DNA of 64,000 nt from Balneolaceae bacterium (GTDB lineage: Bacteria; Bacteroidota; Rhodothermia; Balneolales; Balneolaceae), in NCBI GenBank assembly GCA_041686215.1, contig JAWLEH010000003.1, forward strand, positions 22,046 through 86,045, read 5' to 3'. Below the pieces are notes generated by a model, which was given only the letters and a program-made list of their open reading frames with translations, did not search any database and was not told the origin of the DNA. Position 1 is the stretch's first letter. Each line of letters opens with the position of its first letter. Of the stretch, positions 46,434 through 57,450 are shown piece after piece. A program made the position numbers and the translations under genes.

Positions 46434-47369
46434 ATGAAAAATTATTCTGCTATGATTAACCAGTCTTTAGTTCGCGAATATAAAAATCCGCCTCAACAGC
46501 TTGTGGAGAACCGGACCAGCTATGCGGGAAGAGATGCGGTTTTTTCGGTTTACGATACCTACCAGGAAGCGCAAATGGTGGAGCTGAAATCAGACAGCCC
46601 GATGTATTGCGGAATGATATCAGGAAAGAAGGTTATCCACTCAGGAGAAGAAACACCCTTCGAGTTTGTGCCAAAGGAATCTCTTGTTCTGCCCCCGGAT
46701 ACCACCATTTATATAGATTTTCCGGATGCCCGGATGAATGAACCCACCAAATGCATTACGGTAGAGTTGCCGCTGTCGAGGATTGATGAGATCGTAGCCC
46801 GGATGAACGACCAGCTGCCGCGGACTAAAACATCGGGTGAATGGGAATACGACGCTTCCGCTTCTGTACATTTTTCCAATACCGAATCTGTCGACCTGTT
46901 GATTCGAAAGCTTTTTCACATTTTCACTGAGGAACACGACCAAAAAGATCTGCTTGTGGAGATGAATACCTCGGAACTGATTGTTCATATGCTGCAGACA
47001 GAGTCGCGAAACCTTCTGCTGAAAAATTACCGGAAGCACGTAACCAGGAGCGGACTCGCGGCGGCGGTTGAATATATAAGCAAGAATCTCGACCGGTCGA
47101 TCTCAATAAAAAAGCTGGCCGATATTGCCTGTATGAGTAAAGCTTCCTTTTATCGCTACTTTAACAATGAGTTTGGGATGAGCCCGGTAGAGTATATCAA
47201 CCAGGAGAGAGTGAAAAAAGCGTGCAGACTGCTTCGCAATGAAAACCTGAACGTTACAGAGGTTAGTTTCAAACTTGGGTATTCCAGTTTGAGCCATTTT
47301 ATCAAACTGTTTAAAGAGCATACCGGTACCACGCCGAAGCAGTACCAGTTAAAAAAAGTGAGTGCCTGA
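46434..47369 (+). CDS. AraC family transcriptional regulator
   Basis: 311 aa. The C-terminal dual HTH reads ISIKKLADIACMSKASFYRYFNNEFGMSPVEYINQERVKKACRLL...VTEVSFKLGYSSLSHFIKLFKEHTGTTPKQY. It is divergent from the aldehyde DH operon. Confidence 0.85.
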   Translation: MKNYSAMINQSLVREYKNPPQQLVENRTSYAGRDAVFSVYDTYQEAQMVELKSDSPMYCGMISGKKVIHSGEETPFEFVPKESLVLPPDTTIYIDFPDARMNEPTKCITVELPLSRIDEIVARMNDQLPRTKTSGEWEYDASASVHFSNTESVDLLIRKLFHIFTEEHDQKDLLVEMNTSELIVHMLQTESRNLLLKNYRKHVTRSGLAAAVEYISKNLDRSISIKKLADIACMSKASFYRYFNNEFGMSPVEYINQERVKKACRLLRNENLNVTEVSFKLGYSSLSHFIKLFKEHTGTTPKQYQLKKVSA

Positions 47370-48024: not shown

Positions 48025-48768
48025 ATGAAATTAACACTGTCAATATTTGTACTGAGTCTTAGCATCGCCTTCGGGGCGATTGCTCAGGGCAATGAGGCCA
48101 TGATCGAGCAGCTGGGCAGCAGCCACGGTGCGATTATTGGGCAGGTGGGCTTGCAGAACAGCGCAACGTCCTTTCAAGGGGGAGAAAATAACAGCTTTAC
48201 ACTACATCAGGTTGGTTCTCATGAGACAACAATTGAGCAGGCCGGCGCAGATAACACCGCTACAGTACAGCAGTGGGCAGGTGTTCAAAACAGCGAGCCG
48301 GGTGTATCTGCTGCATTTCTGGAACAGACAGGAACAGGAAATGAAATTTCAATAAGCCAGTATGGTGAGCATGTCACAGATATTGAGCAGTCAGGCAGTC
48401 AAAACTCTATTGATTTGACACAAGCGCAAAGTAATTCTACAGTTTCCTCTCTCGGAGAGGAATATGGCAGCGGCGCTTTTGCACTGTTGATGCAGCATGG
48501 TTTCAGCAACGACATCGTGCTGGCGCAAAACGGATCCCACTACGCTGAGATTACTCAGAACGGGAGCCAAAACACAGCGAACGTGATGCAGGACGGACTT
48601 GATCTGAGCCATCTGGCCAGGATTGAGCAGGACGGATCGGGTAACGACGCCACAATTGAGCAGTATGGCAGTCAGAGTTCAGCCGTCATCCGGCAGCACG
48701 GAAACGGGCATTCAGCCCACATACAACAGGCTGGCTATGGAAATCAAACCACAGTCATCCAAAACTAA
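48025..48768 (+). CDS. secreted curlin-repeat protein (CsgA/CsgB family), paralog 1
   Basis: 247 aa with the signal peptide MKLTLSIFVLSLSIAFGAIA/QG. About 18 units of x-x-Q-x-G-x-x-N-x-A/S-x follow, ending ARIEQDGSGNDATIEQYGSQSSAVIRQHGNGHSAHIQQAGYGNQTTVIQN. The mature protein has no Cys and is Q/N/G/S-rich. Confidence 0.8.
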   Translation: MKLTLSIFVLSLSIAFGAIAQGNEAMIEQLGSSHGAIIGQVGLQNSATSFQGGENNSFTLHQVGSHETTIEQAGADNTATVQQWAGVQNSEPGVSAAFLEQTGTGNEISISQYGEHVTDIEQSGSQNSIDLTQAQSNSTVSSLGEEYGSGAFALLMQHGFSNDIVLAQNGSHYAEITQNGSQNTANVMQDGLDLSHLARIEQDGSGNDATIEQYGSQSSAVIRQHGNGHSAHIQQAGYGNQTTVIQN

Positions 48769-48842
48769 CACAGAACAATTCTGAGAGAGGAGTTGACGCT
48801 CAGATGTCTAATAAATCAATGCAAATAAATCAAAACAGACCT

Positions 48843-48919
48843 ATGAAAACACTACTTACACTTACTACAGCACTCCTTTTTACGACAGGAGCAGCATTTG
48901 CACAAAGCAATGATGCAAC
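48843..48919 (+). repeat. 77-nt exact direct repeat, copy 1 (signal-peptide region of curlin paralog 2)
   Basis: atgaaaacactacttacacttactacagcactcctttttacgacaggagcagcatttgcacaaagcaatgatgcaac is identical to 49972-50048. Confidence 0.95.
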
Positions 48920-49682
48920 GGTGGACCAGGTTGGAAATCAAAATGAAGTTACCATTACACAGGTGTATCAGGCCGGCGGCTCCGGTGATGACAACGAGGC
49001 ATTTGCTACACAGACAGGTGACAATAACGCTGCAACAGGACTGAACCAACGCGGGGCCGGAAACTGGTATGAAATCGTGCAAACTGGCGACAATAACCTT
49101 GTAGACCGCTACCCGAACCAGGGTTCCACCCAGGGCGGCAGCTATGATGGCTATATCTCTATTACGCAGCTCAATGATGATAATAAGGTGTGGGATGCAG
49201 ACCAGGCGGGCTCCGAAAACAGCTTAACGGTTACACAGAGAGGCGGAGACATTGTTAATGTTGAAGCCCAGATAAGTCCGGAAGGCGGAGTCGGGAATAC
49301 GATCGTCATTGATCAGTTCGGCGGTGGAAATGCAGTTGGTGAATTTAGTTCCAACGGCTCCGGTGCGTACCAGGAAGGCGAAGAAAACTCCATGGACATT
49401 ACACAGGAAGGCGGGGCGAAAGCCGGCATAGCCTCAGTATATGTAAGCGGTGCTACCGAAAAGTTCTTCCGAAGCACTGTTGAGGGCGGCCAGGGACTTA
49501 TTCAGCTTGGGGATGATAACATGTTGAATATTGATCAGGATGGCGCAAGCACCGTCGGTTTCGTGATTCAGAAAGGAGACATGAACGAAGCGAGCGTATA
49601 CCAGACTGGTGATTATCATACAGCCACTGTCAGCCAGGCAGGAAACAGCAACGAGGCTGCAATTACCCAGAGCGAAATCTGA
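48843..49682 (+). CDS. secreted curlin-repeat protein, paralog 2
   Basis: The signal peptide is MKTLLTLTTALLFTTGAAFA/QSNDAT. Repeats include VDQVGNQNEVTITQ, ATQTGDNNAATGLNQRGAGNWYEIVQTGDNN, VTQRGGD, IDQFGGGNAV, IDQDGAS and VSQAGNSNEAAITQ. The start was moved from 48804 to 48843 because the first 77 nt from 48843 are identical to the start of paralog 3. Confidence 0.8.
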   Translation: MKTLLTLTTALLFTTGAAFAQSNDATVDQVGNQNEVTITQVYQAGGSGDDNEAFATQTGDNNAATGLNQRGAGNWYEIVQTGDNNLVDRYPNQGSTQGGSYDGYISITQLNDDNKVWDADQAGSENSLTVTQRGGDIVNVEAQISPEGGVGNTIVIDQFGGGNAVGEFSSNGSGAYQEGEENSMDITQEGGAKAGIASVYVSGATEKFFRSTVEGGQGLIQLGDDNMLNIDQDGASTVGFVIQKGDMNEASVYQTGDYHTATVSQAGNSNEAAITQSEI

Positions 49683-49971
49683 TAATCCATTTCATCTGGT
49701 CCCCGGTGGGTTCCCTTGAAGTTACCCGGCGAGCACAGATGACAGGAGATTTCAGGGAGACACAAACGGAGAGAATCAATAGGAGCGTGAGTTGACCTCT
49801 GTACAATAAATATGCTTACCAAAAGAAAACTGCTTTAGAGCATAGATGACAATTACAGCGACCATTACCCAGAACTAATTTTGTTCTGAGTGTACATTTG
49901 CAACCCCGTGAGGCTTGACCGCCTTGCGGGGGATTCGCTGATTTTAAACAACTATTAAAATTAATAAGGAA

Positions 49972-50048
49972 ATGAAAACACTACTTACACTTACTACAGC
50001 ACTCCTTTTTACGACAGGAGCAGCATTTGCACAAAGCAATGATGCAAC
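49972..50048 (+). repeat. 77-nt exact direct repeat, copy 2 (signal-peptide region of curlin paralog 3)
   Basis: Base-for-base identical to 48843-48919. The sequences diverge immediately afterwards (g gtg gac versus t ctt agc). Confidence 0.95.
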
Positions 50049-50898
50049 TCTTAGCCAGGATGGCGATGATAACGAAGCCAATATCGAACAGGTTGGTGGT
50101 GATAACAGCGCAGAACTGAACCAGGGATTTGATAATAATGGCCATTTTCAGGGACAAAGCAACGCCTTTGGGGAAATTATCCAGGATGGGGATAAGAATT
50201 CTGCTGAGCTGAACCAGCGAGCCTGGGGTGCGGACGGTAACGAACACTCCATCGATCAGTCTGGCTATATGAACTCCGCGGATGTGGATATCTACAACGG
50301 CAATAATTTTGGTTTCCTGCTTCAGAATGGAACTGAAAACAGTGCCCGTATGGTACAGTCAGGAAGAGACAATGAGTCCCTGATTGTCCAGGAAGGTAAT
50401 GAAAACTATGCTCAAAGCAGGACAACCGGCGGTTCCGGAAACCAGACGGCTATCGTGCAGGGTGTGCCTGGAGGAGAAATGCCGCCAGAAGACGGAATCC
50501 CCTCAAATGACGGCCCGCAGCTCCAGGGTTCAGAAGTAGGTCCGCTCGTGCCATTTTCTGCGGATAATGCAGCAACACTAAAAATAGAAGGAAGCGATAA
50601 CCTGGCCGGCATTCTGCAGGTAGGTTTCAGCAACAGCGCGGGATCAAACCCACAGTGGAGCGGCGATCTTGGAATTGATGTGGTCGGCGACGGAAACATG
50701 TCCGGCATTGCTCAGATTGGCGAAATGAACGAAGCTAACATATCTGTGATGGGGAATGCAAACATGGCCGGTATTCTGCAGTTAGGTGCTGAAAACACCG
50801 CTTCTATCATGCAGGATGGATCCGGAAACAGTGCAGTGATTCTACAATCAGACGGCATGGGCGGAGGATTACCCGGCGGAGTGCCCGTTGTAGAATAA
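49972..50898 (+). CDS. secreted curlin-repeat protein, paralog 3 (bipartite, Pro/Gly-rich linker)
   Basis: 308 aa. The N-terminal half carries IEQVGGDNSAELNQ, IIQDGDKNSAELNQ, IDQSGYMNSA, LLQNGTENSARMVQSGRDNESLIVQEGNEN and AIVQ. A linker GVPGGEMPPEDGIPSNDGPQLQGSEVGPLVPF follows. The C-terminal half has a different unit (NLAGILQVGFSNSA, NMSGIAQIGEMNEA, NMAGILQLGAENTASIMQDGSGNSAVILQS) and the tail GMGGGLPGGVPVVE. Confidence 0.75.
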   Translation: MKTLLTLTTALLFTTGAAFAQSNDATLSQDGDDNEANIEQVGGDNSAELNQGFDNNGHFQGQSNAFGEIIQDGDKNSAELNQRAWGADGNEHSIDQSGYMNSADVDIYNGNNFGFLLQNGTENSARMVQSGRDNESLIVQEGNENYAQSRTTGGSGNQTAIVQGVPGGEMPPEDGIPSNDGPQLQGSEVGPLVPFSADNAATLKIEGSDNLAGILQVGFSNSAGSNPQWSGDLGIDVVGDGNMSGIAQIGEMNEANISVMGNANMAGILQLGAENTASIMQDGSGNSAVILQSDGMGGGLPGGVPVVE

Positions 50899-50913
50899 AA
50901 TAGAGAAACAGAA

Positions 50914-50965
50914 ACAGATGTAATCTGCCCGCGGTATAAAAACAGGCTGCGGGCCATCTGTTTTC
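50914..50965 (+). terminator. rho-independent terminator after curlin paralog 3
   Basis: Nested stem: acagatg (50914-50920) pairs with catctgt (50955-50961), and gcccgc (50927-50932) pairs with gcgggc (50949-50954). It is followed by tttt. Confidence 0.65.
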
Positions 50966-51008
50966 ATAACGATACAGGGATATTTATACCAGAAAAAACA
51001 GGAGACCT

Positions 51009-51830
51009 ATGATAAATCGACTGCTACATCTTTTAATACTATTGTTTGTGGGTACGGCTATTGCCACTGCACAACAGCATGACGCTGAAATTCTTCAGCT
51101 TGGCGGCGATAATAACTTCGCTGAAATCGGCCAGATGGGAGAGCTTAATTCAGCATTCATCAGCCAGGAAGCCAGTAACGATATCGCCACTATTGAACAA
51201 GCCGGTGAAAATAATCAGGCCACAGTGAAACAGGGCTTTCACCCGGAAGCGAACGGGTTCAGAACCGATGCTGAAATCATTCAAAATGGAAACCATAATG
51301 AAGCCACCATCACACAAACCGGCCGGCACGATGTCTCCGGATTTATCCATCAAACAGGCAACAACAATGTTGCACTTGTTGAGCAAGATAAAGCCGACGA
51401 TTTCAATAACGCCCGGGTAGAAGTGATTCAGACCGGAGGTGAACAAAACCTGGTGCAACAGCAGCAGGAAGACCGGGATGGAGTTTTCGGGCAGGTTCAC
51501 CAGGACGGTTCGTTTAACTTTGTGGGCCAGACACAAACCATCGGTGGCGGAGGAAACGGTCAGTTTTCTCACGTGGTAAGTAACCAGGAAGGTGACAATA
51601 ACCACGCAGAAGTGAGCCAGCACGGAGAGCTTGGCAGTGGTGAAACTCATCAATACGGGAACTATAACCAAGCATTTCTGACTCAGGAAGGAGACGAAAA
51701 CACCGGGTACATTTACCAGCATGGAATGCATAACATGGCCGCTGTCAGCCAAATAGGGAACAATAACAGCGGGTCTGTTACTCAGAATGGCGACAACAAT
51801 ACGGCCACAATTTTACAGGAAGTTAATTGA
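51009..51830 (+). CDS. secreted curlin-repeat protein, paralog 4
   Basis: 273 aa with the signal peptide MINRLLHLLILLFVGTAIATA/QQ. Repeats include ILQLGGDNNFAEIGQMGELNSAFISQ, IEQAGENNQATVKQ, IIQNGNHNEATITQTGRHD, IHQTGNNNVALVEQ, VIQTGGEQN, VSQHGELG, THQYGNYNQAFLTQEGDENTGYIYQHGMHNMAAVSQIGNNNSGSVTQNGDNNTATILQ. Confidence 0.8.
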   Translation: MINRLLHLLILLFVGTAIATAQQHDAEILQLGGDNNFAEIGQMGELNSAFISQEASNDIATIEQAGENNQATVKQGFHPEANGFRTDAEIIQNGNHNEATITQTGRHDVSGFIHQTGNNNVALVEQDKADDFNNARVEVIQTGGEQNLVQQQQEDRDGVFGQVHQDGSFNFVGQTQTIGGGGNGQFSHVVSNQEGDNNHAEVSQHGELGSGETHQYGNYNQAFLTQEGDENTGYIYQHGMHNMAAVSQIGNNNSGSVTQNGDNNTATILQEVN

Positions 51831-51863
51831 GACAAGACGTTAGGTAGGTTAGATATAAGTTAG

Positions 51864-51898
51864 ATCCGGGAGCTGTGATGGTTCCCGGATTTCTTTTT
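51864..51898 (+). terminator. rho-independent terminator after curlin paralog 4
   Basis: atccggga-gctgtgatggt-tcccggat forms a perfect 8-bp stem, followed by ttcttttt. Confidence 0.75.
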
Positions 51899-51923
51899 CA
51901 ATTTTTTAACAAACGGAGAGAAA

Positions 51924-52343
51924 ATGCGAGTGCTAAACTTTTTGATACCACTTTTATTGGGAGTTGCATCAGCAGCAGAAAGCCGTCAGGCAGAGACAAT
52001 GAGCGACCGCCACGGTAATGTAAAGGTGTTCCAGGGGATTGATGCGAATGTTGATGATTCCGTAAAACAGGCTGGTGAGGATAACAGGATTTTCCTATAC
52101 AGAGCAATACCTTCCGGCGGGTATGCGGATAGCATTGATATAAAACAAGATGGAAAAGAGAACAAAATTCTTTCATTTATCTCAGGAGAACAACCGTTTC
52201 ATCAACTGCTGAAACAGAGGGGTGATGAAAATTCTGTTCTGATTCTTCAATCATCAAAACACGACAGCACGGCACAAGACCCAAAAGGAATATCTGTGCA
52301 TCAGAAAGGAAATGGAAATCGTGTAACGATCACCCGGAATTAG
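51924..52343 (+). CDS. short, divergent curlin-like repeat protein, paralog 5 (candidate minor/nucleator subunit)
   Basis: 139 aa with the signal peptide MRVLNFLIPLLLGVASA/AE. It has four charged variants of the motif: VKQAGEDNRIFLY, IKQDGKENKILSF, LKQRGDENSVLILQ and VHQKGNGNRVTITRN. Confidence 0.5.
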   Translation: MRVLNFLIPLLLGVASAAESRQAETMSDRHGNVKVFQGIDANVDDSVKQAGEDNRIFLYRAIPSGGYADSIDIKQDGKENKILSFISGEQPFHQLLKQRGDENSVLILQSSKHDSTAQDPKGISVHQKGNGNRVTITRN

Positions 52344-52369
52344 GCAGAAGCTGACAGCGTAAACCAACA

Positions 52370-52735
52370 ATGAAAACCCACGAATTTCATATAGCCCTAT
52401 TAATGATTACGCTGGTTGCCGCCAGTGTGATCTCATACAATTATTTGAATTCAGGGAATACTCCGGGTGAAGGCAGTACATTTACTTACGAGTGCGATAT
52501 TTCAGCAAAAAAGGTTGAAGATGTATCGCCCATACATATCGAACCCCCACAGGTGTCCCGATTCTTAAAAGAAAGGGAGAAGTCTTGTGAAAAAGTGACT
52601 CGGAACATCAGGGAAAAGCTGTATATGTGTTCAGAACGTTATCGCTCATCTGATTCGGCATTACAACTATTTAAGCACGGATTTATGGGCCGAGTTCAGA
52701 ATGATAGGGAAGTATCTGCGCCCAAAAATGAATAA
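52370..52735 (+). CDS. hypothetical single-pass membrane protein in the curlin gene cluster
   Basis: 121 aa with an N-terminal TM/signal-anchor (IALLMITLVAASVISY), three Cys and a basic C-terminal half. I recognise no family. Confidence 0.35.
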   Translation: MKTHEFHIALLMITLVAASVISYNYLNSGNTPGEGSTFTYECDISAKKVEDVSPIHIEPPQVSRFLKEREKSCEKVTRNIREKLYMCSERYRSSDSALQLFKHGFMGRVQNDREVSAPKNE

Positions 52736-53359
52736 ACTAACGAAAGTAATAGCATTGAAACGGGCTTTCTCAGGGACAATTTCCAGGTTTTCAGAACGGT
52801 GAATTGTAACTCGCGGACTTTCTCTAAATCATCTCAATAAGCTGAGCTTTACTGAATAAGGAAACCAACGGAGTTGATTCAGGTATGGTAAACAGCTGTA
52901 GCGGGAAAACGGTAACACCTTGTTTCTGAATTAGATGGAATCGATTTAGCTCATCATTTCTAAATAAATTTATCCATTACTCTGATCGTATTTGAACACA
53001 GGCTATCTGTCAGGTTAATAGATTTTGGGAGACGATATTCACACAAGTTCTTTATTGAGTATTCAGAAATGTACAGTAAAAAGAGACTTACAGGAAAAGC
53101 TCTGAAATTTTCAGTAAAAAATGAGAGATTAAACTGCCGGATAAAATAACACCTGTAATATTTGGCCCATATAGCTTTCACAGATAATGCATTACTGATC
53201 TGTAAAAAAATCGGCCGTTTTTTTGATTAATAAAAAAGAGAAAAAGTCGATAAGCAAATAGAAGCCTTCAAATGCCGGGCTCAAAAAAATACGCAACTGT
53301 AGATTACCCGTTTTGGTATACCGGCATGGATAGATCATAAATCATCATCAAATGTACTT

Positions 53360-54013
53360 ATGAAGTCACGATATTTACTTATTATGACCGCTCTTTTAGC
53401 AGCGGCTGTACTCATCACCTCTTGCGCCAAGGATACCATAGAAGCAGAAACGTTTGGAAGTATTGGGGGAATTGTATTGGACGGAGAGACGGACGAGGGA
53501 ATTGTTTCTGCAAATATTACAACAACACCGGCAACCAACGCCATTTTATCTGAGAACGGCGGCCAGTTTACGCTGGAAGAAGTGCCAACGGGTAACTACA
53601 CGATTTCAGCCCGCAAAAACGGGTATAAAAACAGCTCTGTGAGTGTTGCGGTAAGAGAAGGAAAAACAGCCTCGGCATTTGTTGTGATGCAGCCGGATGA
53701 TGAAGAGCCAGACTCAACTGTAACAATGGACGAATTTGAAGCCTCTATCACCTCATGGTTTAATGATGCGGAGGGTGACAGCTCATTTGCGGATGTGAAT
53801 TACCGGGTGTCGAACAACAGTGATTCCGGGAATATCAGCGAGTATGAGGTCTATTTTGAAGTTGAAACAAATAGCGGTACCACGTTCTTTTTTGATGTGG
53901 CCGGTGAAGATCTGCGGGCTGGACAGAGCCGTAACGGGAATTTACGTGGATATATTCGGGATAATGAAGCCACAGACGTCATTATTTCCGATATATGGAT
54001 TTCTGAAAACTAA
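53360..54013 (+). CDS. lipoprotein with carboxypeptidase-regulatory-like (CarboxypepD_reg) domain, first gene of the csgEFG-type operon
   Basis: 217 aa with the lipobox LLAAAVLITSC. The block GSIGGIVLDGETDEGIVSANITTTPA...GGQFTLEEVPTGNYTISARKNGYKNSSVSVAVREGKTA is the classic CarboxypepD_reg pattern. It ends 24 nt before the CsgE-like gene. Confidence 0.6.
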   Translation: MKSRYLLIMTALLAAAVLITSCAKDTIEAETFGSIGGIVLDGETDEGIVSANITTTPATNAILSENGGQFTLEEVPTGNYTISARKNGYKNSSVSVAVREGKTASAFVVMQPDDEEPDSTVTMDEFEASITSWFNDAEGDSSFADVNYRVSNNSDSGNISEYEVYFEVETNSGTTFFFDVAGEDLRAGQSRNGNLRGYIRDNEATDVIISDIWISEN

Positions 54014-54037
54014 CCTGTACTGACCCTAATCTGCTGA

Positions 54038-54868
54038 ATGAAATGTCTATTCAACATAGTATGTGCATTTTTTCTTGTAAGCCTTTTCGGTGGAGTTGCC
54101 GTTGCGCAAGACAGTACACTCACGCAGGAGTATCCCGCTGAAATCTACATTCAGCAGTCTGATGGAGATGGAATCCTGTTCGTAAATGTTGAGCCGGACC
54201 TGGATGAAGTGTTGATTCTTAGAGAAAATAATTTTCGCCAGATTCAGCTCCGTTTTCCCGACCAGCAAAATTCGGATATGGTCAGTGAAGAAATTCAGTG
54301 GGAGGTGGCGGATGAAGAAAATGTAACCGGTGAAATTATTGAGCGTTCTGATTCTTCTGGAGGTCAGATGGAGAACCGTCTGGCTGAAATGTTAAGCGAG
54401 GCGCTACGCCGCAGCCCTGCTGATGTGTCTGAAAATAGAGATGTCCAGGCGGTGGTTGAAGATCCGGATGAGGAACAGCTTGATGAGTTTCGTGAAGCGT
54501 TCCAGGCAGTGCTTGATGAGGATAACAGTACAGAAGAAGAACCGGATCAACCCGACCCCGCCGGCTTGTTTGAAGATATTGATGGTATGGTGTTGGATGA
54601 AACAAGATCGAAAGTGGGTCGTGATTTTTACAGCGCCTTTTTCTCGGCCTGGGAAAAGCCGGATGATACCAGGAATTACATTATCCGAATTGTTGAACGA
54701 CCGGGCCCAAGCATGGCGAGTGTTGTTTCTGTTGATGTGAATTATGAAAAAATATTTGAAATGCGGCTCCATCCCGGTGATCAGCGGATCAAACAGGCCG
54801 GCGACTACGCTGTGGATGAAGTGATCTCGTACCTTGAAGAAAGAAAAGCGAACCCGTTAACTTATTAA
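54038..54868 (+). CDS. csgE: curli assembly protein CsgE-like, with ~150-aa acidic N-terminal extension
   Basis: 276 aa with a signal peptide. The C-terminal ~95 aa (GMVLDETRSKVGRDFYSAFFSAWEKPDDTRNYIIRIVERPGPSMASVVSVDVNYEKIF) is collinear with E. coli CsgE as I recall it ([55 protein letters not shown]). Confidence 0.8.
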   Translation: MKCLFNIVCAFFLVSLFGGVAVAQDSTLTQEYPAEIYIQQSDGDGILFVNVEPDLDEVLILRENNFRQIQLRFPDQQNSDMVSEEIQWEVADEENVTGEIIERSDSSGGQMENRLAEMLSEALRRSPADVSENRDVQAVVEDPDEEQLDEFREAFQAVLDEDNSTEEEPDQPDPAGLFEDIDGMVLDETRSKVGRDFYSAFFSAWEKPDDTRNYIIRIVERPGPSMASVVSVDVNYEKIFEMRLHPGDQRIKQAGDYAVDEVISYLEERKANPLTY

Positions 54869-54878
54869 TTCTGATGAT

Positions 54879-55304
54879 ATGAAACGTATCTACCTTATTG
54901 TATTGAGCAGCCTTTTTGTTGTACTGTCTTTTTCGGCGGAAAATGCAGCGGCCCAGGAAATGGTATACTCACCAAAAAATCCTGCCTTCGGAGGAAATCC
55001 CGGTAATTACAGCTGGCTTTTAAATAGTGCTGACACTCAAAATCTCTTTGAGGAATCACGGCAATCCGGGTTTCAGCGCGACCCTCTTGCCGATTTCGAA
55101 AATTCACTTCAGCGACAGGTGCTTTCGCAGCTGACGCGCGACCTGGTACGGCGTGAGTTTGGCGAAGGGGATGAGATCGAAGAGTCTCGGTTTGAGTTTG
55201 GCGAATTTAATATTGAGGTGGTACCGGGAAGCGACGGTGTGAGAATCCAGATATTTAATGTGCTTACCGGCGATGAAACCAGTGTAACGATTCCAAACTT
55301 TTAG
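54879..55304 (+). CDS. csgF: curli production assembly/transport component CsgF
   Basis: 141 aa with a signal peptide. The mature N-terminus MVYSPKNPAFGGNPGNYSWLLNSADTQN parallels E. coli [27 protein letters not shown] (from memory). Confidence 0.85.
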   Translation: MKRIYLIVLSSLFVVLSFSAENAAAQEMVYSPKNPAFGGNPGNYSWLLNSADTQNLFEESRQSGFQRDPLADFENSLQRQVLSQLTRDLVRREFGEGDEIEESRFEFGEFNIEVVPGSDGVRIQIFNVLTGDETSVTIPNF

Positions 55305-55307
55305 ATT

Positions 55308-56687
55308 ATGATACGTACTCCGCAGATTCTTTTATTCAGCCTGATCGCCGCGTTTGTTCTGAACGGTTGCTCGGGTACCATGAAACCGATGCATACCGAA
55401 CGGGCAACGTTTGGAACCGTCAGCGAGGTATATCCGCAGCTGAAAGAACTTCCTGAACCAGAAGAAAAAATTGTAGCTGCAGTCTACCGGTTTCGCGATC
55501 AAACCGGGCAGTATAAGCCGTCGGACCGTGTGGCGAGCTGGTCAACCGCGGTAACACAGGGGGCTACATCCATCCTGATGAAGTCAATGGAAGAATCGGG
55601 CTGGTTTGTGCCGATTGAACGGGAAAGTATATCAAACCTGCTGAATGAACGGCAGATTATCCAGAATATTCGCCAGCAGCATTCTGGTCCGCAGGGCCCG
55701 CAACAGCTTCCACCCCTTCTTTTTGCAGGTGTGATGCTGGAAGGCGGTATTGTAGGCTACGATACGAACGTGATTACCGGCGGAGTTGGAGCGCGTTACC
55801 TGGGTTCAGGCGGGTCCGGGCAATACCGAAAAGACCAGGTTACTATTTACCTGCGGGCAGTTTCCACACAAAGCGGACGTGTTCTGAAAACTGTACATAC
55901 TACGAAGTCGATCATTTCGCAACAGCTTGAAAGCGGAGTTTTTCGGTTTATTGATACAAACCGGCTGCTTGAAGCCGAAGCCGGATATACCTACAATGAA
56001 CCCCCGGTGATGGCTGTAACCGAAGCCATTGACGAAGCCGTGAAACAGTTGATTTTGGAGGGAGTTGAAGAGGACATTTGGTCGCCGCAAAACCCGGACG
56101 AAATCCTGGCATATCGCGAACGGTTTAATTTCAAGAAACAGAAAGAGGAACAGCTTCAGCGGGATTATTTTGGCCTGATTGAGCAGGAAGATCTTCGGGG
56201 CGGCTGGTCGGTTTCTGCAAATGGCTTGATGGGATCAGTCATCGGAAATTATAATAACCCGGATATGAACCCCGGAGTTGGGCTGCAGTTCGAAAAAGGC
56301 CTCACAAGATATTTTTCGATGAAGCTTGGCGGTCAGAGGACCCAAATCAGCGCCCCGGACGCCTTTTCAAGCCCGGTAAATGCGGCTGATCTATTGCTAA
56401 ACGTGTATGCAGCTCCCGGCCATGTATTTTCGCCTTACTTCTCTGCAGGAGGCGGTGCGTTTATCTACGATCAAAACCATCCGGATCTGGAAGATCAGGT
56501 TCTCCCGTTCATGGGAGTTGAAGCCGGTATTGATTACCGTTTCAATAAACAGTTTGGTGCTCGCATCAGCTCAACCTATCGATACCTGCTAACTGACGGC
56601 CTGGATGGTATTTCTATGGGGAAATATAATGATCAGCACTGGGGTGTGAACCTGGGAGTTACGTATCAGCCTGCGTTTTTGAGGTGA
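55308..56687 (+). CDS. csgG: curli secretion channel lipoprotein CsgG, fused to an extra C-terminal beta-barrel-like domain
   Basis: 459 aa with the lipobox FVLNGCSG. Residues ~50-265 are collinear with E. coli CsgG: VYRFRDQTGQYKP, STAVTQGATSILMKSMEESGWFVPIERE, NLLNERQII, MLEGGIVGYDTNVITGGVGARYLG, SGVFRFID, GYTYNEP. E. coli CsgG is about 277 aa, so roughly 185 extra C-terminal residues remain. Confidence 0.9.
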   Translation: MIRTPQILLFSLIAAFVLNGCSGTMKPMHTERATFGTVSEVYPQLKELPEPEEKIVAAVYRFRDQTGQYKPSDRVASWSTAVTQGATSILMKSMEESGWFVPIERESISNLLNERQIIQNIRQQHSGPQGPQQLPPLLFAGVMLEGGIVGYDTNVITGGVGARYLGSGGSGQYRKDQVTIYLRAVSTQSGRVLKTVHTTKSIISQQLESGVFRFIDTNRLLEAEAGYTYNEPPVMAVTEAIDEAVKQLILEGVEEDIWSPQNPDEILAYRERFNFKKQKEEQLQRDYFGLIEQEDLRGGWSVSANGLMGSVIGNYNNPDMNPGVGLQFEKGLTRYFSMKLGGQRTQISAPDAFSSPVNAADLLLNVYAAPGHVFSPYFSAGGGAFIYDQNHPDLEDQVLPFMGVEAGIDYRFNKQFGARISSTYRYLLTDGLDGISMGKYNDQHWGVNLGVTYQPAFLR

Positions 56688-56751
56688 TGAATACATATCC
56701 CTTTAAGAGTTGAAGTTGAGCACATTTTCTGTGCGTGAACCGGCGAGGGGG

Positions 56752-57450
56752 TTACCGGTCGAAGTACTGATTTAATTGTGTCGCCATCTCTTCTTTTTTA
56801 CCGGAAAGATCCTGCACAACCGTTCCTTTTTCAAGAAGCACGATCCGGCTGCAAATATCCGTGACGTGAACAAGATCGTGACTGGAAATTAAAAAAGTGG
56901 TTTCCTGGTTTTTATTTTCCGTGGTGATAAGCTTTTTCAAGCGGTTCTGAGAAGTAGGGTCGAGATTTTCAAACGGTTCATCCAGAATGATCAGGTCCGG
57001 TTCACTGAGGAATGCAGCTGCTATACCGGTTTTTTTGCGATTTCCCTTCGACAGGCTTCGGATATACTTTTTTTTAAATCTGATCTCGTCATTGAATAGC
57101 GGGTCAAATTGCCTGAGCCTGTCTTCAGCAGCTTTTGGGGATACCTGGTAGACTTCCCGGAGCATATCAAAGTATTCATCCGGAGTGAGAAAGGGCAGCA
57201 ACATGTGTTCGTCGAGGTAGGAGCCGACTTGTGTTTTCCAGTCCTCGGTTTGATGAACGGCCCGGCCGAAAAGGGTAACGGTTCCGGATGTGGAGCGGAT
57301 CAAATCGAGAATGAGTCGGAAAAGGGTCGTTTTGCCGGCCCCGTTATTTCCTACAAGCCCGAAGCACTCCCCTTTGCTGATCTCAAGTGCCGGTATGTTC
57401 AGTACCGTCTCTCCGTAATATCTTTTCACCAAATTTTGAATAGAAATCAT
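56752..57450 (-). CDS. ABC transporter ATP-binding protein
   Basis: 232 aa with Walker A GNNGAGKTT, signature LSKGNRKKTGIAAA and Walker B LIILDEPFENLD. Its start overlaps the upstream gene's stop (ATGA at 57450-57447). Confidence 0.85.
   Translation of the reverse strand: MISIQNLVKRYYGETVLNIPALEISKGECFGLVGNNGAGKTTLFRLILDLIRSTSGTVTLFGRAVHQTEDWKTQVGSYLDEHMLLPFLTPDEYFDMLREVYQVSPKAAEDRLRQFDPLFNDEIRFKKKYIRSLSKGNRKKTGIAAAFLSEPDLIILDEPFENLDPTSQNRLKKLITTENKNQETTFLISSHDLVHVTDICSRIVLLEKGTVVQDLSGKKEEMATQLNQYFDR

What the first reader, a model, noticed from the sequence alone, without database searches (positions are those of the whole stretch)
56130..56687. CsgG fused to an extra ~185-residue C-terminal domain that looks like a small outer-membrane beta-barrel
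Seen: collinearity with E. coli CsgG (about 277 aa) ends near residue 265-275 (EGVEEDIWSPQNPDE). The ORF then continues in frame for about 185 residues. A short charged helix-like linker (RERFNFKKQKEEQLQRDYFGLIEQEDLRG) comes first. It is followed by alternating hydrophobic/aromatic-Gly strands typical of 8-stranded OMP barrels: GWSVSANGLMGSVIGNY, GVGLQFEKGLTRYFSMKLGGQ, ADLLLNVYAAPGHVFSPYFSAGGGAFIY, PFMGVEAGIDYRFNKQFGARISSTYRY and HWGVNLGVTYQPAF. Established: CsgG is a lipoprotein whose nonamer forms a 36-stranded channel from four strands per protomer. No C-terminal barrel is part of the characterised protein. Inference: nine extra barrels or anchor domains around the channel would be a novel secretin-like architecture. 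Alternatively the domain could anchor fibres or substitute for a missing partner.
Basis: partly seen in the sequence, partly recalled or inferred. Interest (0 to 1): 0.65.

Follow-up and report, generated by a model that had tools for sequence, protein, structure and literature searches.

The report
CsgG curli channel fused to barrel
The curli-secretion channel protein CsgG of this Rhodohalobacter-like bacterium really does carry an extra small outer-membrane barrel at its C-terminus, and this fused form turns out to be the usual, still unstudied version of the protein across Bacteroidota and related phyla.

Summary
ORF 55308..56687 (+) encodes 459 aa. It has a lipoprotein signal (Cys21) and a CsgG domain (Pfam, residues 48-261, E 3e-65; 4e-64 to E. 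coli CsgG). A charged helix follows (263-285), then an eight-stranded beta-barrel (300-453).

AlphaFold2 models the barrel with pLDDT 92. Foldseek matches it to OmpA-TM, NspA, OmpW, OprF-N, Ail and OmpX. Sequence profiles give only sub-threshold hits, to OMP_b-brl and to the type IX secretion protein PorG.

It is not a frameshift. In all 78 related loci with enough DNA, both domains lie in one ORF directly after csgE-csgF. These loci span Balneolales, Rhodothermales, Ignavibacteria, several Bacteroidia orders, Calditrichia and Gemmatimonadales. The barrel is under purifying selection (dN/dS about 0.09).

So this is the standard FCB-group form of the type VIII secretion channel, not a peculiarity of this genome. 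I found no paper describing it.

Most likely each CsgG protomer is tied to an integral outer-membrane barrel that anchors or helps assemble the nonameric channel. This parallels PorG, which is disulfide-bonded to the lipoprotein PorK. That role is inferred, not shown. The "secretin-like" and "missing partner" readings are not supported.

The parts
55308..56687 (+). Whole csgG-barrel gene: 459 codons plus stop. It starts 4 nt after the csgF stop.
   Evidence: ORF list. 100% identical protein P0001 and 85% identical Rhodohalobacter sp. 8-1 homologue.
55308..55370 (+). Signal peptide and lipobox (residues 1-21, ...VLNG-C21).
   Evidence: Cys21 is invariant in 55 homologues. It aligns with the E. 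coli CsgG lipobox region. It is the only Cys in the protein.
55449..56090 (+). CsgG domain (residues 48-261), the channel-forming part.
   Evidence: Pfam PF03783: 220 bits, E 2.7e-65. Foldseek to CsgG 4uv2, E 1.5e-17. Mean column conservation 0.75.
56094..56204 (+). Linker. A charged helix (residues 263-285) is followed by an extended segment (286-299) with the conserved DYFG motif and R297.
   Evidence: AlphaFold2 helix 263-285. G289 is conserved in 89% and R297 in 94% of 79 sequences; the rest is variable (mean 0.37).
56205..56666 (+). Eight-stranded beta-barrel (residues 300-453), predicted to be outer-membrane-embedded.
   Evidence: AF2 domain model: pLDDT 91.7, pTM 0.80. Foldseek hits: OmpA-TM, NspA (TM-score 0.80), OmpW, OprF-N, Ail, OmpX, PagL. 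PF13505 24 bits, below the 28.7 cut-off. PorG profile E 2e-6. Alternating hydrophobic and polar strand faces. dN/dS 0.09.
56589..56633 (+). Loop between strands 7 and 8 (residues 428-442, LTDGLDGISMGKYND). It is the most conserved element of the barrel and is predicted to be extracellular (L4).
   Evidence: D430 94%, D433 100%, G434 89%, G438 96%, D442 100% and W445 94% conserved in 79 sequences. The motif is also present in the free-standing paralogue P0178.
54879..55304 (+). csgF (141 aa).
   Evidence: Pfam PF10614, E 1.5e-38. Found directly upstream of the fused gene in most related loci.
54038..54868 (+). csgE (276 aa). The CsgE domain lies at residues 181-273, after an acidic N-terminal extension of about 180 aa.
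   Evidence: Pfam PF10627, E 4.2e-21. The homologous ORFs (stop-to-stop) range from 101 to 694 aa; some are cut by a contig end.
53360..54013 (+). Lipoprotein with a CarboxypepD_reg domain (217 aa). First gene of the apparent csgE-F-G operon.
   Evidence: Pfam PF13620 and PF13715. A homologue (E<1e-10) is present in 62 of 80 related loci, often adjacent.
48025..52343 (+). Five curlin-repeat (CsgA/B-like) genes: 48025-48768, 48804-49682, 49972-50898, 51009-51830 and 51924-52343.
   Evidence: Pfam Curlin_rpt, E 1e-28 to 2.5e-7.

Best explanation
The gene encodes the FCB-group form of the type VIII (curli) secretion channel. It is a CsgG lipoprotein whose periplasmic C-terminal helix continues through a helical spacer of about 35 residues into an integral eight-stranded outer-membrane barrel. 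That barrel belongs to the OmpA-TM/OmpX/NspA structural class and is distantly related to PorG.

Proposed working (inferred):
1. The protein is exported and lipidated at Cys21.
2. The C-terminal barrel is inserted into the outer membrane like any small OMP, presumably by BAM.
3. Each CsgG protomer is thereby held covalently at the inner face of the outer membrane.
4. Nine protomers then form the usual 36-stranded channel with CsgF and CsgE.
5. The nine small barrels sit around the channel as built-in anchors that help targeting, assembly or stability.

The logic matches type IX secretion and gliding in the same phyla, where the lipoprotein ring subunit PorK/GldK is tied to an eight-stranded barrel (PorG) by a disulfide bond. 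Here the tie is a peptide bond.

Shown: domain identities, barrel fold prediction, conservation of the fusion, selection, and the curli gene context. Inferred: membrane insertion, topology, BAM dependence, nonamer geometry and the anchoring role.
For: - CsgG domain and lipobox.
- Barrel: eight strands at pLDDT 85-98. The top 20 Foldseek hits to the domain model are all eight-stranded outer-membrane barrels except one Legionella porin, including NspA at TM-score 0.80.
- Seven of eight strands alternate a hydrophobic face with a polar or Gly face across the family, and many homologues end in an aromatic residue.
- PF13505 is detected in 37 of 73 members and the PorG profile in 57 of 73, all below the curated cut-offs.
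- The fusion is one ORF in 78 of 78 complete loci from many FCB lineages, with csgE and csgF upstream in 75 of 80.
- The one apparent split gene (L082) is a frameshift inside the CsgG domain, not a natural split.
- dN/dS is 0.09.
- Topology: E. coli CsgG is described with its C-terminal region facing the periplasm (PMC12822426). This fits an OMP barrel whose N-terminus is periplasmic.
- PorG precedent: an eight-stranded outer-membrane barrel, disulfide-bonded to lipoprotein PorK/GldK and essential for T9SS (PMC12365241; PMC12635249; PMC4980022).
- Geometry: estimated C-alpha radii are about 32 A for a 36-stranded barrel and about 8 A for an 8-stranded one. This leaves room for nine satellites around the channel.
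Against: - Nothing here shows membrane insertion, oligomeric arrangement or function.
- The full-length monomer model is only moderate (pLDDT 70.8, pTM 0.51). It says nothing reliable about contacts between the barrel and the CsgG domain.
- E. coli CsgG is cited in a reference title as assembling without BamA or TamA (Dunstan et al. 2015, seen). An extra anchor is therefore not obviously needed.
- The best-conserved element is a predicted extracellular loop, not the periplasmic face. A pure anchor role does not explain that.
- The window protein itself is below the Pfam gathering score for OMP_b-brl (24.2 vs 28.7 bits).
Confidence: 0.6

Rival explanations
1. Surface platform. The barrels matter mainly through their conserved extracellular loops (L1 G313-x-Y315; L4 D430-x-x-D433-G434...G438...D442-x-x-W445). 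These would ring the channel exit and bind CsgF's surface domain, the nucleator curlin, the fibre, LPS or a cation such as calcium. Fibre nucleation would then be held at the pore.
For: L4 is the most conserved part of the barrel across phyla and has a fixed length, whereas L3 varies by up to about 20 residues. The locus encodes five different curlins, so anchoring and nucleation may be more complex than in E. coli.
Against: The same L1 and L4 motifs occur in the free-standing paralogue P0178, which sits between glutamine synthetase and purM-like genes, far from any curli gene. The match to the PorG profile covers residues 372-442, which include L4. The motif therefore looks like a feature of the barrel family rather than a curli-specific site. 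The loop's orientation is inferred, not shown.
Confidence: 0.2
2. The C-terminal domain is a soluble periplasmic beta-barrel or a plug that regulates the periplasmic vestibule of CsgG. It would not be a membrane protein.
For: The window sequence is below the Pfam threshold for OMP_b-brl. The charged linker would allow the domain to reach below the channel.
Against: The outward-facing strand positions are hydrophobic across the family. All significant structural neighbours are integral outer-membrane barrels. Many members have aromatic-rich C-terminal ends. CsgE, the known periplasmic gate, is present.
Confidence: 0.07
3. Artefact: a sequencing or assembly frameshift, or a missed stop codon, has joined csgG to a separate OMP gene.
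For: Metagenomic contigs do contain frameshifted copies, for example L082.
Against: 78 of 78 complete loci from independent isolates and MAGs of different phyla keep one frame. No natural csgG-plus-separate-barrel arrangement was found. The linker is translated and conserved (DYFG, R297). The barrel is under purifying selection.
Confidence: 0.01

Closest known systems
E. coli / Salmonella CsgG (type VIII secretion channel; PDB 4uv3, 3x2r, 6si7)
   Same: Lipobox Cys and a CsgG domain collinear over 257 residues (E 4e-64). The fold matches (Foldseek E 1e-17). csgE and csgF partners and curlin substrates are encoded alongside.
   Different: E. coli CsgG ends about 9 residues after the last aligned position. 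This protein adds a helix of about 23 residues and an eight-stranded barrel of about 155 residues. At two of the E. coli pore-constriction positions the aligned residues differ (ASNFST becomes ASWST, KPY becomes KPS, with the role of those positions taken from my own knowledge). It scores 222 bits against the NCBIfam equivalog cut-off of 505.
PorG (PG0189 / Fjoh_1692) with PorK/GldK of the type IX secretion and gliding machinery
   Same: Both are small eight-stranded outer-membrane barrels of FCB-group bacteria, covalently tied to an outer-membrane lipoprotein that forms a ring-shaped secretion assembly. The PorG profile weakly recognises the barrel here (E 2e-6) and 57 of 73 family members. 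The best case is 82 bits for a two-barrel homologue. PorG biology is taken from PMC4980022, PMC12365241 and PMC12635249.
   Different: PorG is a separate protein linked through a Cys in its periplasmic C-tail. Here the link is a peptide bond at the barrel's N-terminus and the barrel has no Cys. All scores are far below the PorG cut-off of 130. The context is curli, not T9SS.
Eight-stranded OMPs: OmpA transmembrane domain, NspA, OmpX, Ail, OmpW, OprF N-domain
   Same: Same predicted fold and size: TM-score 0.80 to NspA, 0.76 to OmpA 1qjp and 0.73 to OprF-N. The only sequence-level PDB hit for the barrel is OprF-N (E 0.004).
   Different: Sequence identity is 12-19%. In OmpA and OprF the barrel is N-terminal and carries a periplasmic peptidoglycan-binding domain. 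Here the barrel is C-terminal and carries a channel-forming lipoprotein domain.
Outer-membrane proteins with several barrels in one chain (PMC8346858)
   Same: One polypeptide contributes to more than one outer-membrane barrel. A homologue, P0143 (662 aa), even has CsgG plus two tandem copies of the small barrel.
   Different: Those proteins are tandem complete barrels. Here one of the two barrels is formed only on nonamerisation, from four strands per chain. That paper does not mention CsgG (0 occurrences).

Membership tests
CsgG family (Pfam PF03783; type VIII secretion channel) | CsgG domain above the Pfam gathering score | tested here: met
   220 bits against a cut-off of 20.8, residues 48-261.
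CsgG family (Pfam PF03783; type VIII secretion channel) | N-terminal lipoprotein signal with lipobox Cys | tested here: met
   VLNG-C21. The Cys is invariant in 55 homologues and aligned with the E. coli lipobox region.
CsgG family (Pfam PF03783; type VIII secretion channel) | Fold of solved CsgG | tested here: met
   Foldseek to 4uv2 at E 1.5e-17, and to 6l7a, 4uv3 and 6si7 at E 1e-9 to 1e-11. Model confidence in this half is only moderate.
CsgG family (Pfam PF03783; type VIII secretion channel) | Encoded with csgE, csgF and curlin-repeat substrates | tested here: met
   csgE, csgF and five Curlin_rpt genes lie upstream on the same strand.
CsgG family (Pfam PF03783; type VIII secretion channel) | Nonameric 36-stranded channel that secretes curlin | not testable with these tools
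   No multimer prediction or experiment was available.
Enterobacterial CsgG equivalog (NCBIfam NF011731) | Score at or above the curated cut-off of 505 | tested here: not met
   221.8 bits. It is a family member but not an equivalog.
Eight-stranded outer-membrane barrel (Pfam OMP_b-brl PF13505 / OmpA-TM-like) | Profile match above the gathering score | tested here: inconclusive
   The window protein scores 24.2 bits against 28.7 (E 4e-5). 37 of 73 family members match at E<=1e-3, the best at 2e-9. PF13505 is precomputed for many homologues.
Eight-stranded outer-membrane barrel (Pfam OMP_b-brl PF13505 / OmpA-TM-like) | Eight antiparallel strands closing a barrel that resembles solved OMPs | tested here: met
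   AF2 pLDDT 91.7 and pTM 0.80, with eight strands. Foldseek hits to NspA, OmpA, OmpW, OprF-N, Ail, OmpX and PagL at E 2e-8 to 4e-4.
Eight-stranded outer-membrane barrel (Pfam OMP_b-brl PF13505 / OmpA-TM-like) | Lipid-facing hydrophobic stripe and aromatic C-terminal signal | tested here: met
   Alternating faces in 7 of 8 strands, using family means. Many homologues end in F, Y or W; the window ends ...TYQPAFLR.
Eight-stranded outer-membrane barrel (Pfam OMP_b-brl PF13505 / OmpA-TM-like) | Actual insertion in the outer membrane | not testable with these tools
   Needs fractionation, heat-modifiability assays or a structure.
T9SS PorG (NCBIfam NF052316) | Score at or above the curated cut-off of 130 | tested here: not met
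   27.6 bits for the window domain. The best in the family is 81.8 bits, from a two-barrel protein. 57 of 73 members match weakly.
T9SS PorG (NCBIfam NF052316) | Conserved Cys in the periplasmic C-tail for a disulfide to PorK/GldK | tested here: not met
   There is no Cys after residue 21. 73 of 79 family members have none in the linker plus barrel. The feature is as defined in PMC12365241 and PMC12635249.
   No secretin family appears among the Pfam or NCBIfam hits at E<=1.

The most novel reading that the evidence does not exclude
FCB-group bacteria may follow a general design rule: ring-forming outer-membrane lipoproteins of secretion machines are covalently coupled to PorG-type eight-stranded barrels. 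The coupling is a disulfide in type IX secretion and gliding, and a gene fusion in type VIII secretion. In that reading, one CsgG polypeptide contributes to two different outer-membrane barrels made by two routes: an oligomeric 36-stranded channel and a BAM-inserted monomeric barrel. Nine satellites would surround the curli pore, and their conserved surface loops would form part of the fibre-nucleation platform. This would be a T8SS architecture not represented by any solved structure.
Probability: 0.3. Interest if true: 0.7.

Novelty: new variant of a known kind. Interest (0 to 1): 0.55.

Why it matters
All structural and mechanistic knowledge of curli secretion comes from the enterobacterial 277-aa CsgG. 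CsgG is also, from my own knowledge, the protein behind commercial nanopore sequencing pores.

Curli operons are widespread in Bacteroidota (PMC12822426). Every related FCB-group locus examined here uses a channel subunit with an added integral membrane barrel.

If the barrels ring the pore, several things change:
- how the channel is targeted and assembled, probably with BAM involvement
- what the cell-surface face of the machine looks like
- how fibres may be anchored

It would also link two FCB-group secretion systems (T8SS and T9SS) through a shared PorG-like module. The question is directly testable by truncation, complementation and cryo-EM.

Tried and rejected
- Word-indexed protein searches with the C-terminal domain alone (1 hit) and with a 27-sequence barrel alignment (11 hits) were almost empty because of index limits. 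They added only frameshifted or truncated copies.
- An apparent natural split, csgG (251 aa) plus a separate 174-aa barrel gene on L082, proved to be a frameshift inside the CsgG domain. The second frame reads MLEAETGFTYNEP... and continues into the barrel. I rejected it as evidence for separable genes.
- A PDB sequence search with the family profile found no PorG chain. Only OprF-N matched, at E 0.004.
- The promoter and terminator consensus scan of 52300-57000 gave no more sites than shuffled sequence for promoters, and no terminator after the gene. It was uninformative.
- The 'Hyphobacterium' (alphaproteobacterial) label of L074 would have extended the fusion beyond the FCB group. The locus has 37% GC, and its protein is closest to loci labelled Bacteroidetes, Ignavibacteriaceae and Bacteroidales. 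I treated the label as doubtful.
- Seven literature searches, and reading of the main curli phylogeny paper (PMC3521004) and of OMP family surveys (PMC4827864, PMC9581022), found no description of the fusion. PMC3521004 states that CsgG size is unaffected by CsgA size.
- I considered and rejected the 'missing partner' idea, because CsgE and CsgF are present, and the 'secretin-like' idea, because no secretin domains are found.
Full report

The window has one ORF at 55308..56687 on the + strand, encoding 459 aa. Position 56130 is the first base of codon 275, so the finding covers residues 275-459.

Pfam places a CsgG domain at residues 48-261 (220 bits, E 2.7e-65). It also gives a sub-threshold OMP_b-brl match at residues 314-451: 20-24 bits against a gathering score of 28.7.

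Against solved structures, the protein aligns with E. coli CsgG over query 9-265, matching chain residues 4-259 of 277 (E 4e-64). A family profile carries the alignment to position 274, matching chain residue 268.

The DNA at 56100-56140 shows no obvious frameshift site.

**2. What is the tail?**

AlphaFold2 on the full protein with 55 homologues gave a moderate model overall (pLDDT 70.8). In the C-terminal part it predicted a helix at 263-285 and eight strands at pLDDT about 85-95.

A second run on residues 260-459 with 73 sequences gave pLDDT 91.7 and pTM 0.80, with the same eight strands.

Foldseek against the PDB matched:
- the N-terminal half to CsgG (4uv2, E 1.5e-17)
- the C-terminal domain to the classic eight-stranded outer-membrane barrels: OmpA transmembrane domain, NspA (TM-score 0.80), OmpW, OprF N-domain, Ail, OmpX and PagL

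Across 79 family members, seven of the eight strands alternate a hydrophobic face with a polar or glycine face. Many homologues end in an aromatic residue, as OMP insertion signals do.

NCBIfam adds a weak but recurrent similarity to the type IX secretion protein PorG. The window domain scores E 2e-6, and 57 of 73 family members match at E<=1e-3. A two-barrel homologue scores 82 bits. All are below the cut-off of 130.

**3. Is the fusion genuine and how widespread is it?**

The closest proteins are 450-483 aa full-length homologues from Rhodohalobacter (85% and 74% identity), Gracilimonas, Fodinibius and other Balneolaceae. The window therefore comes from a Rhodohalobacter-like organism.

A scan of one genome per species returned 289 relatives, and the best 80 loci were kept. 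The match covers query residues about 8-453 in:
- Balneolales
- Rhodothermales and Salinibacteraceae
- Ignavibacteria and Melioribacteraceae
- Bacteroidales, Prolixibacteraceae, Carboxylicivirga and Sunxiuqinia
- Saprospiraceae and Sphingobacteriia
- Pontibacter and Belliella
- Calditrichia
- a Gemmatimonadales MAG with 71% GC

My own ORF analysis found both domains in one stop-free frame (450-539 codons) in 78 of 80 loci. The other two are cut by contig ends. csgE and csgF are both present in 75 of 80.

dN/dS against the nearest relative is 0.09 for the barrel and 0.02 for the CsgG domain; dS is near saturation, so these are approximate.

An exhaustive phmmer search of the tail against 1.84 billion cluster representatives found only 85 relatives. 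Nearly all are fusions of 450-480 aa or fragments of them. Two exceptions stand out:
- P0143 is CsgG followed by two tandem barrels.
- P0178 is a free-standing barrel with its own signal peptide in a Bacteroidota genome, flanked by glutamine-synthetase and purM-like genes rather than curli genes.

The one apparent split gene (L082) is a frameshift within the CsgG domain.

**4. Context**

The locus is a complete curli system on one strand:
- an AraC-type regulator (46434-47369)
- five curlin-repeat proteins (48025-52343)
- an unannotated 121-aa ORF
- a CarboxypepD_reg lipoprotein (53360-54013)
- CsgE with a long acidic N-terminal extension (54038-54868)
- CsgF (54879-55304)
- the fused CsgG, which starts 4 nt after the csgF stop

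Downstream genes are convergent: an ABC ATPase and a DUF5687 membrane protein. No partner of the canonical E. coli outer-membrane apparatus is missing.

**5. Anatomy of the added part**

The linker is poorly conserved (mean 0.37), except for a DYFG motif and R297 just before strand 1.

In the barrel, the positions conserved in at least 80% of 79 sequences are G313, Y315, P370, P376, G381, G383, P400, G407, Y410, G417, Y426, D430, D433, G434, G438, D442, W445 and G450.

E. coli CsgG is described with its C-terminal region facing the periplasm (PMC12822426). With the barrel N-terminus periplasmic, the odd loops are extracellular. The conserved D-x-x-D-G...G...D-x-x-W block is then loop 4 (428-442), and the conserved P370/P376 lie in periplasmic turn 2. 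This topology is an inference.

The same motifs occur in the free-standing paralogue, so they appear to belong to the barrel family rather than to curli biology specifically.

**6. How it most likely works**

Shown:
- It is a bona fide CsgG lipoprotein domain.
- It is covalently joined to a domain that has every computable hallmark of a small integral outer-membrane barrel.
- The fusion is conserved under selection across several phylum-level lineages and always sits in curli loci.

Inferred:
- The barrel is inserted like other OMPs, presumably by BAM.
- The spacer (a 23-residue helix plus 14 extended residues) lets the barrel sit beside the channel.
- Nine copies can fit around a 36-stranded barrel. 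Estimated C-alpha radii are about 32 A and about 8 A.
- The barrels serve as built-in anchors or assembly aids.

The best precedent comes from the same phyla. PorG is an eight-stranded barrel disulfide-bonded to the ring lipoprotein PorK/GldK and essential for type IX secretion (PMC4980022; PMC12365241; PMC12635249). Here a PorG-like barrel is joined to a ring-forming lipoprotein by a peptide bond.

The main rival is that the conserved surface loops are the functional part, acting as a fibre or nucleator platform or binding a cation or LPS. I rate this lower because the motifs persist outside curli loci. A soluble-domain reading and an artefact reading are poorly supported.

**7. Comparison with what is known, and novelty**

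The protein is a member of the CsgG family. It passes the domain, lipobox, fold and context tests, but it is not an equivalog of enterobacterial CsgG by NCBI's cut-off.

The tail belongs structurally to the eight-stranded OMP class. It is not a PorG family member: the score is far below the cut-off, there is no tail Cys, and there is no T9SS context. It is not secretin-like.

Databases already display the architecture: PF13505+PF03783 is precomputed for many homologues, and one carries the UniRef name 'Outer membrane beta-barrel protein'.

I found no paper that describes it. The main curli phylogeny paper treats CsgG size as constant (PMC3521004). A transporter-family survey lists the CsgG family at 283+/-48 aa (PMC4827864). 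The OMPdb paper lists only PF03783 for CsgG.

I therefore class it as a new, uncharacterised variant of a known kind, general to the FCB group rather than special to this window.

**8. Verdict**

The core of the interpretation (a fused outer-membrane barrel) is supported. Its uniqueness, the 'secretin-like' label and the 'missing partner' idea are not.

Interest is moderate to good (0.55). It is a clean, testable structural question about a well-studied secretion system, with an unexpected link to PorG, but function remains inferred.

Noticed in passing
window 53360-54013 (+); also L082 3290-3931, L083 6082-6438: A lipoprotein with a CarboxypepD_reg domain heads the csgE-F-G operon here. A homologue (E<1e-10) is present in 62 of 80 related curli loci, often directly next to the fused csgG. 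In many Bacteroidia and Ignavibacteria loci the homologous ORF is about 500 aa. It may be an unrecognised accessory component of FCB-group curli systems.
   Followed up: partly
window 54038-54868 (+): CsgE has an acidic N-terminal extension of about 180 residues before the CsgE domain (residues 181-273). Homologous ORFs (stop-to-stop) in related loci range from 101 to 694 aa, with the CsgE domain always at the C-terminal end.
   Followed up: no
window 48025-52343 (+) and 46434-47369 (+): Five different curlin-repeat proteins lie in a row (139-308 aa). An AraC-family regulator is encoded upstream. No CsgC, CsgD or CsgH homologue was seen among the ORFs scanned between 46434 and 56687.
   Followed up: partly
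window 52370-52735 (+): A 121-aa ORF lies between the last curlin gene and the lipoprotein gene. It has no Pfam match.
   Followed up: no
P0143 (662 aa): A CsgG homologue carries two tandem copies of the small barrel after the CsgG domain. It gives the strongest PorG-profile score, 81.8 bits over two stretches.
   Followed up: partly
L081 8001-8705 (P0178, GCA_048265395.1): A free-standing paralogue of the barrel has its own signal peptide and the same L1 and L4 motifs. It sits between glutamine-synthetase and purM-like genes in a Bacteroidota genome. It has no Pfam hit on record and no NCBIfam match.
   Followed up: partly
L074 (CAYGPM010000003.1, labelled 'uncultured Hyphobacterium sp.'): The locus has 37% GC. 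Its fused CsgG is closest to proteins from loci labelled Bacteroidetes, Ignavibacteriaceae and Bacteroidales. The alphaproteobacterial label of this 495-kb contig looks wrong.
   Followed up: partly
L027 and L033 (same contig JAXHMA010000004.1); also L072/L076, L010/L011, L014/L055, L007/L067: Several genomes or MAGs carry two csgE-F-G(barrel) loci. In one Balneolaceae MAG the two lie about 11 kb apart in opposite orientation.
   Followed up: no
P0128 (5241 aa) and P0154 (5636 aa): Two giant proteins match residues 82-110 of the 192-aa tail query (about residues 349-377 of the protein) in 9-15 separate short stretches. This suggests a repeated motif resembling the strand 4 - turn - strand 5 region. 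It remains unexplained.
   Followed up: no
L082 about 2535-2545: A frameshift inside the CsgG domain of a metagenomic contig makes gene callers report a 251-aa 'CsgG' and a 174-aa barrel-only protein. Short barrel-only database entries of this kind are artefacts.
   Followed up: yes
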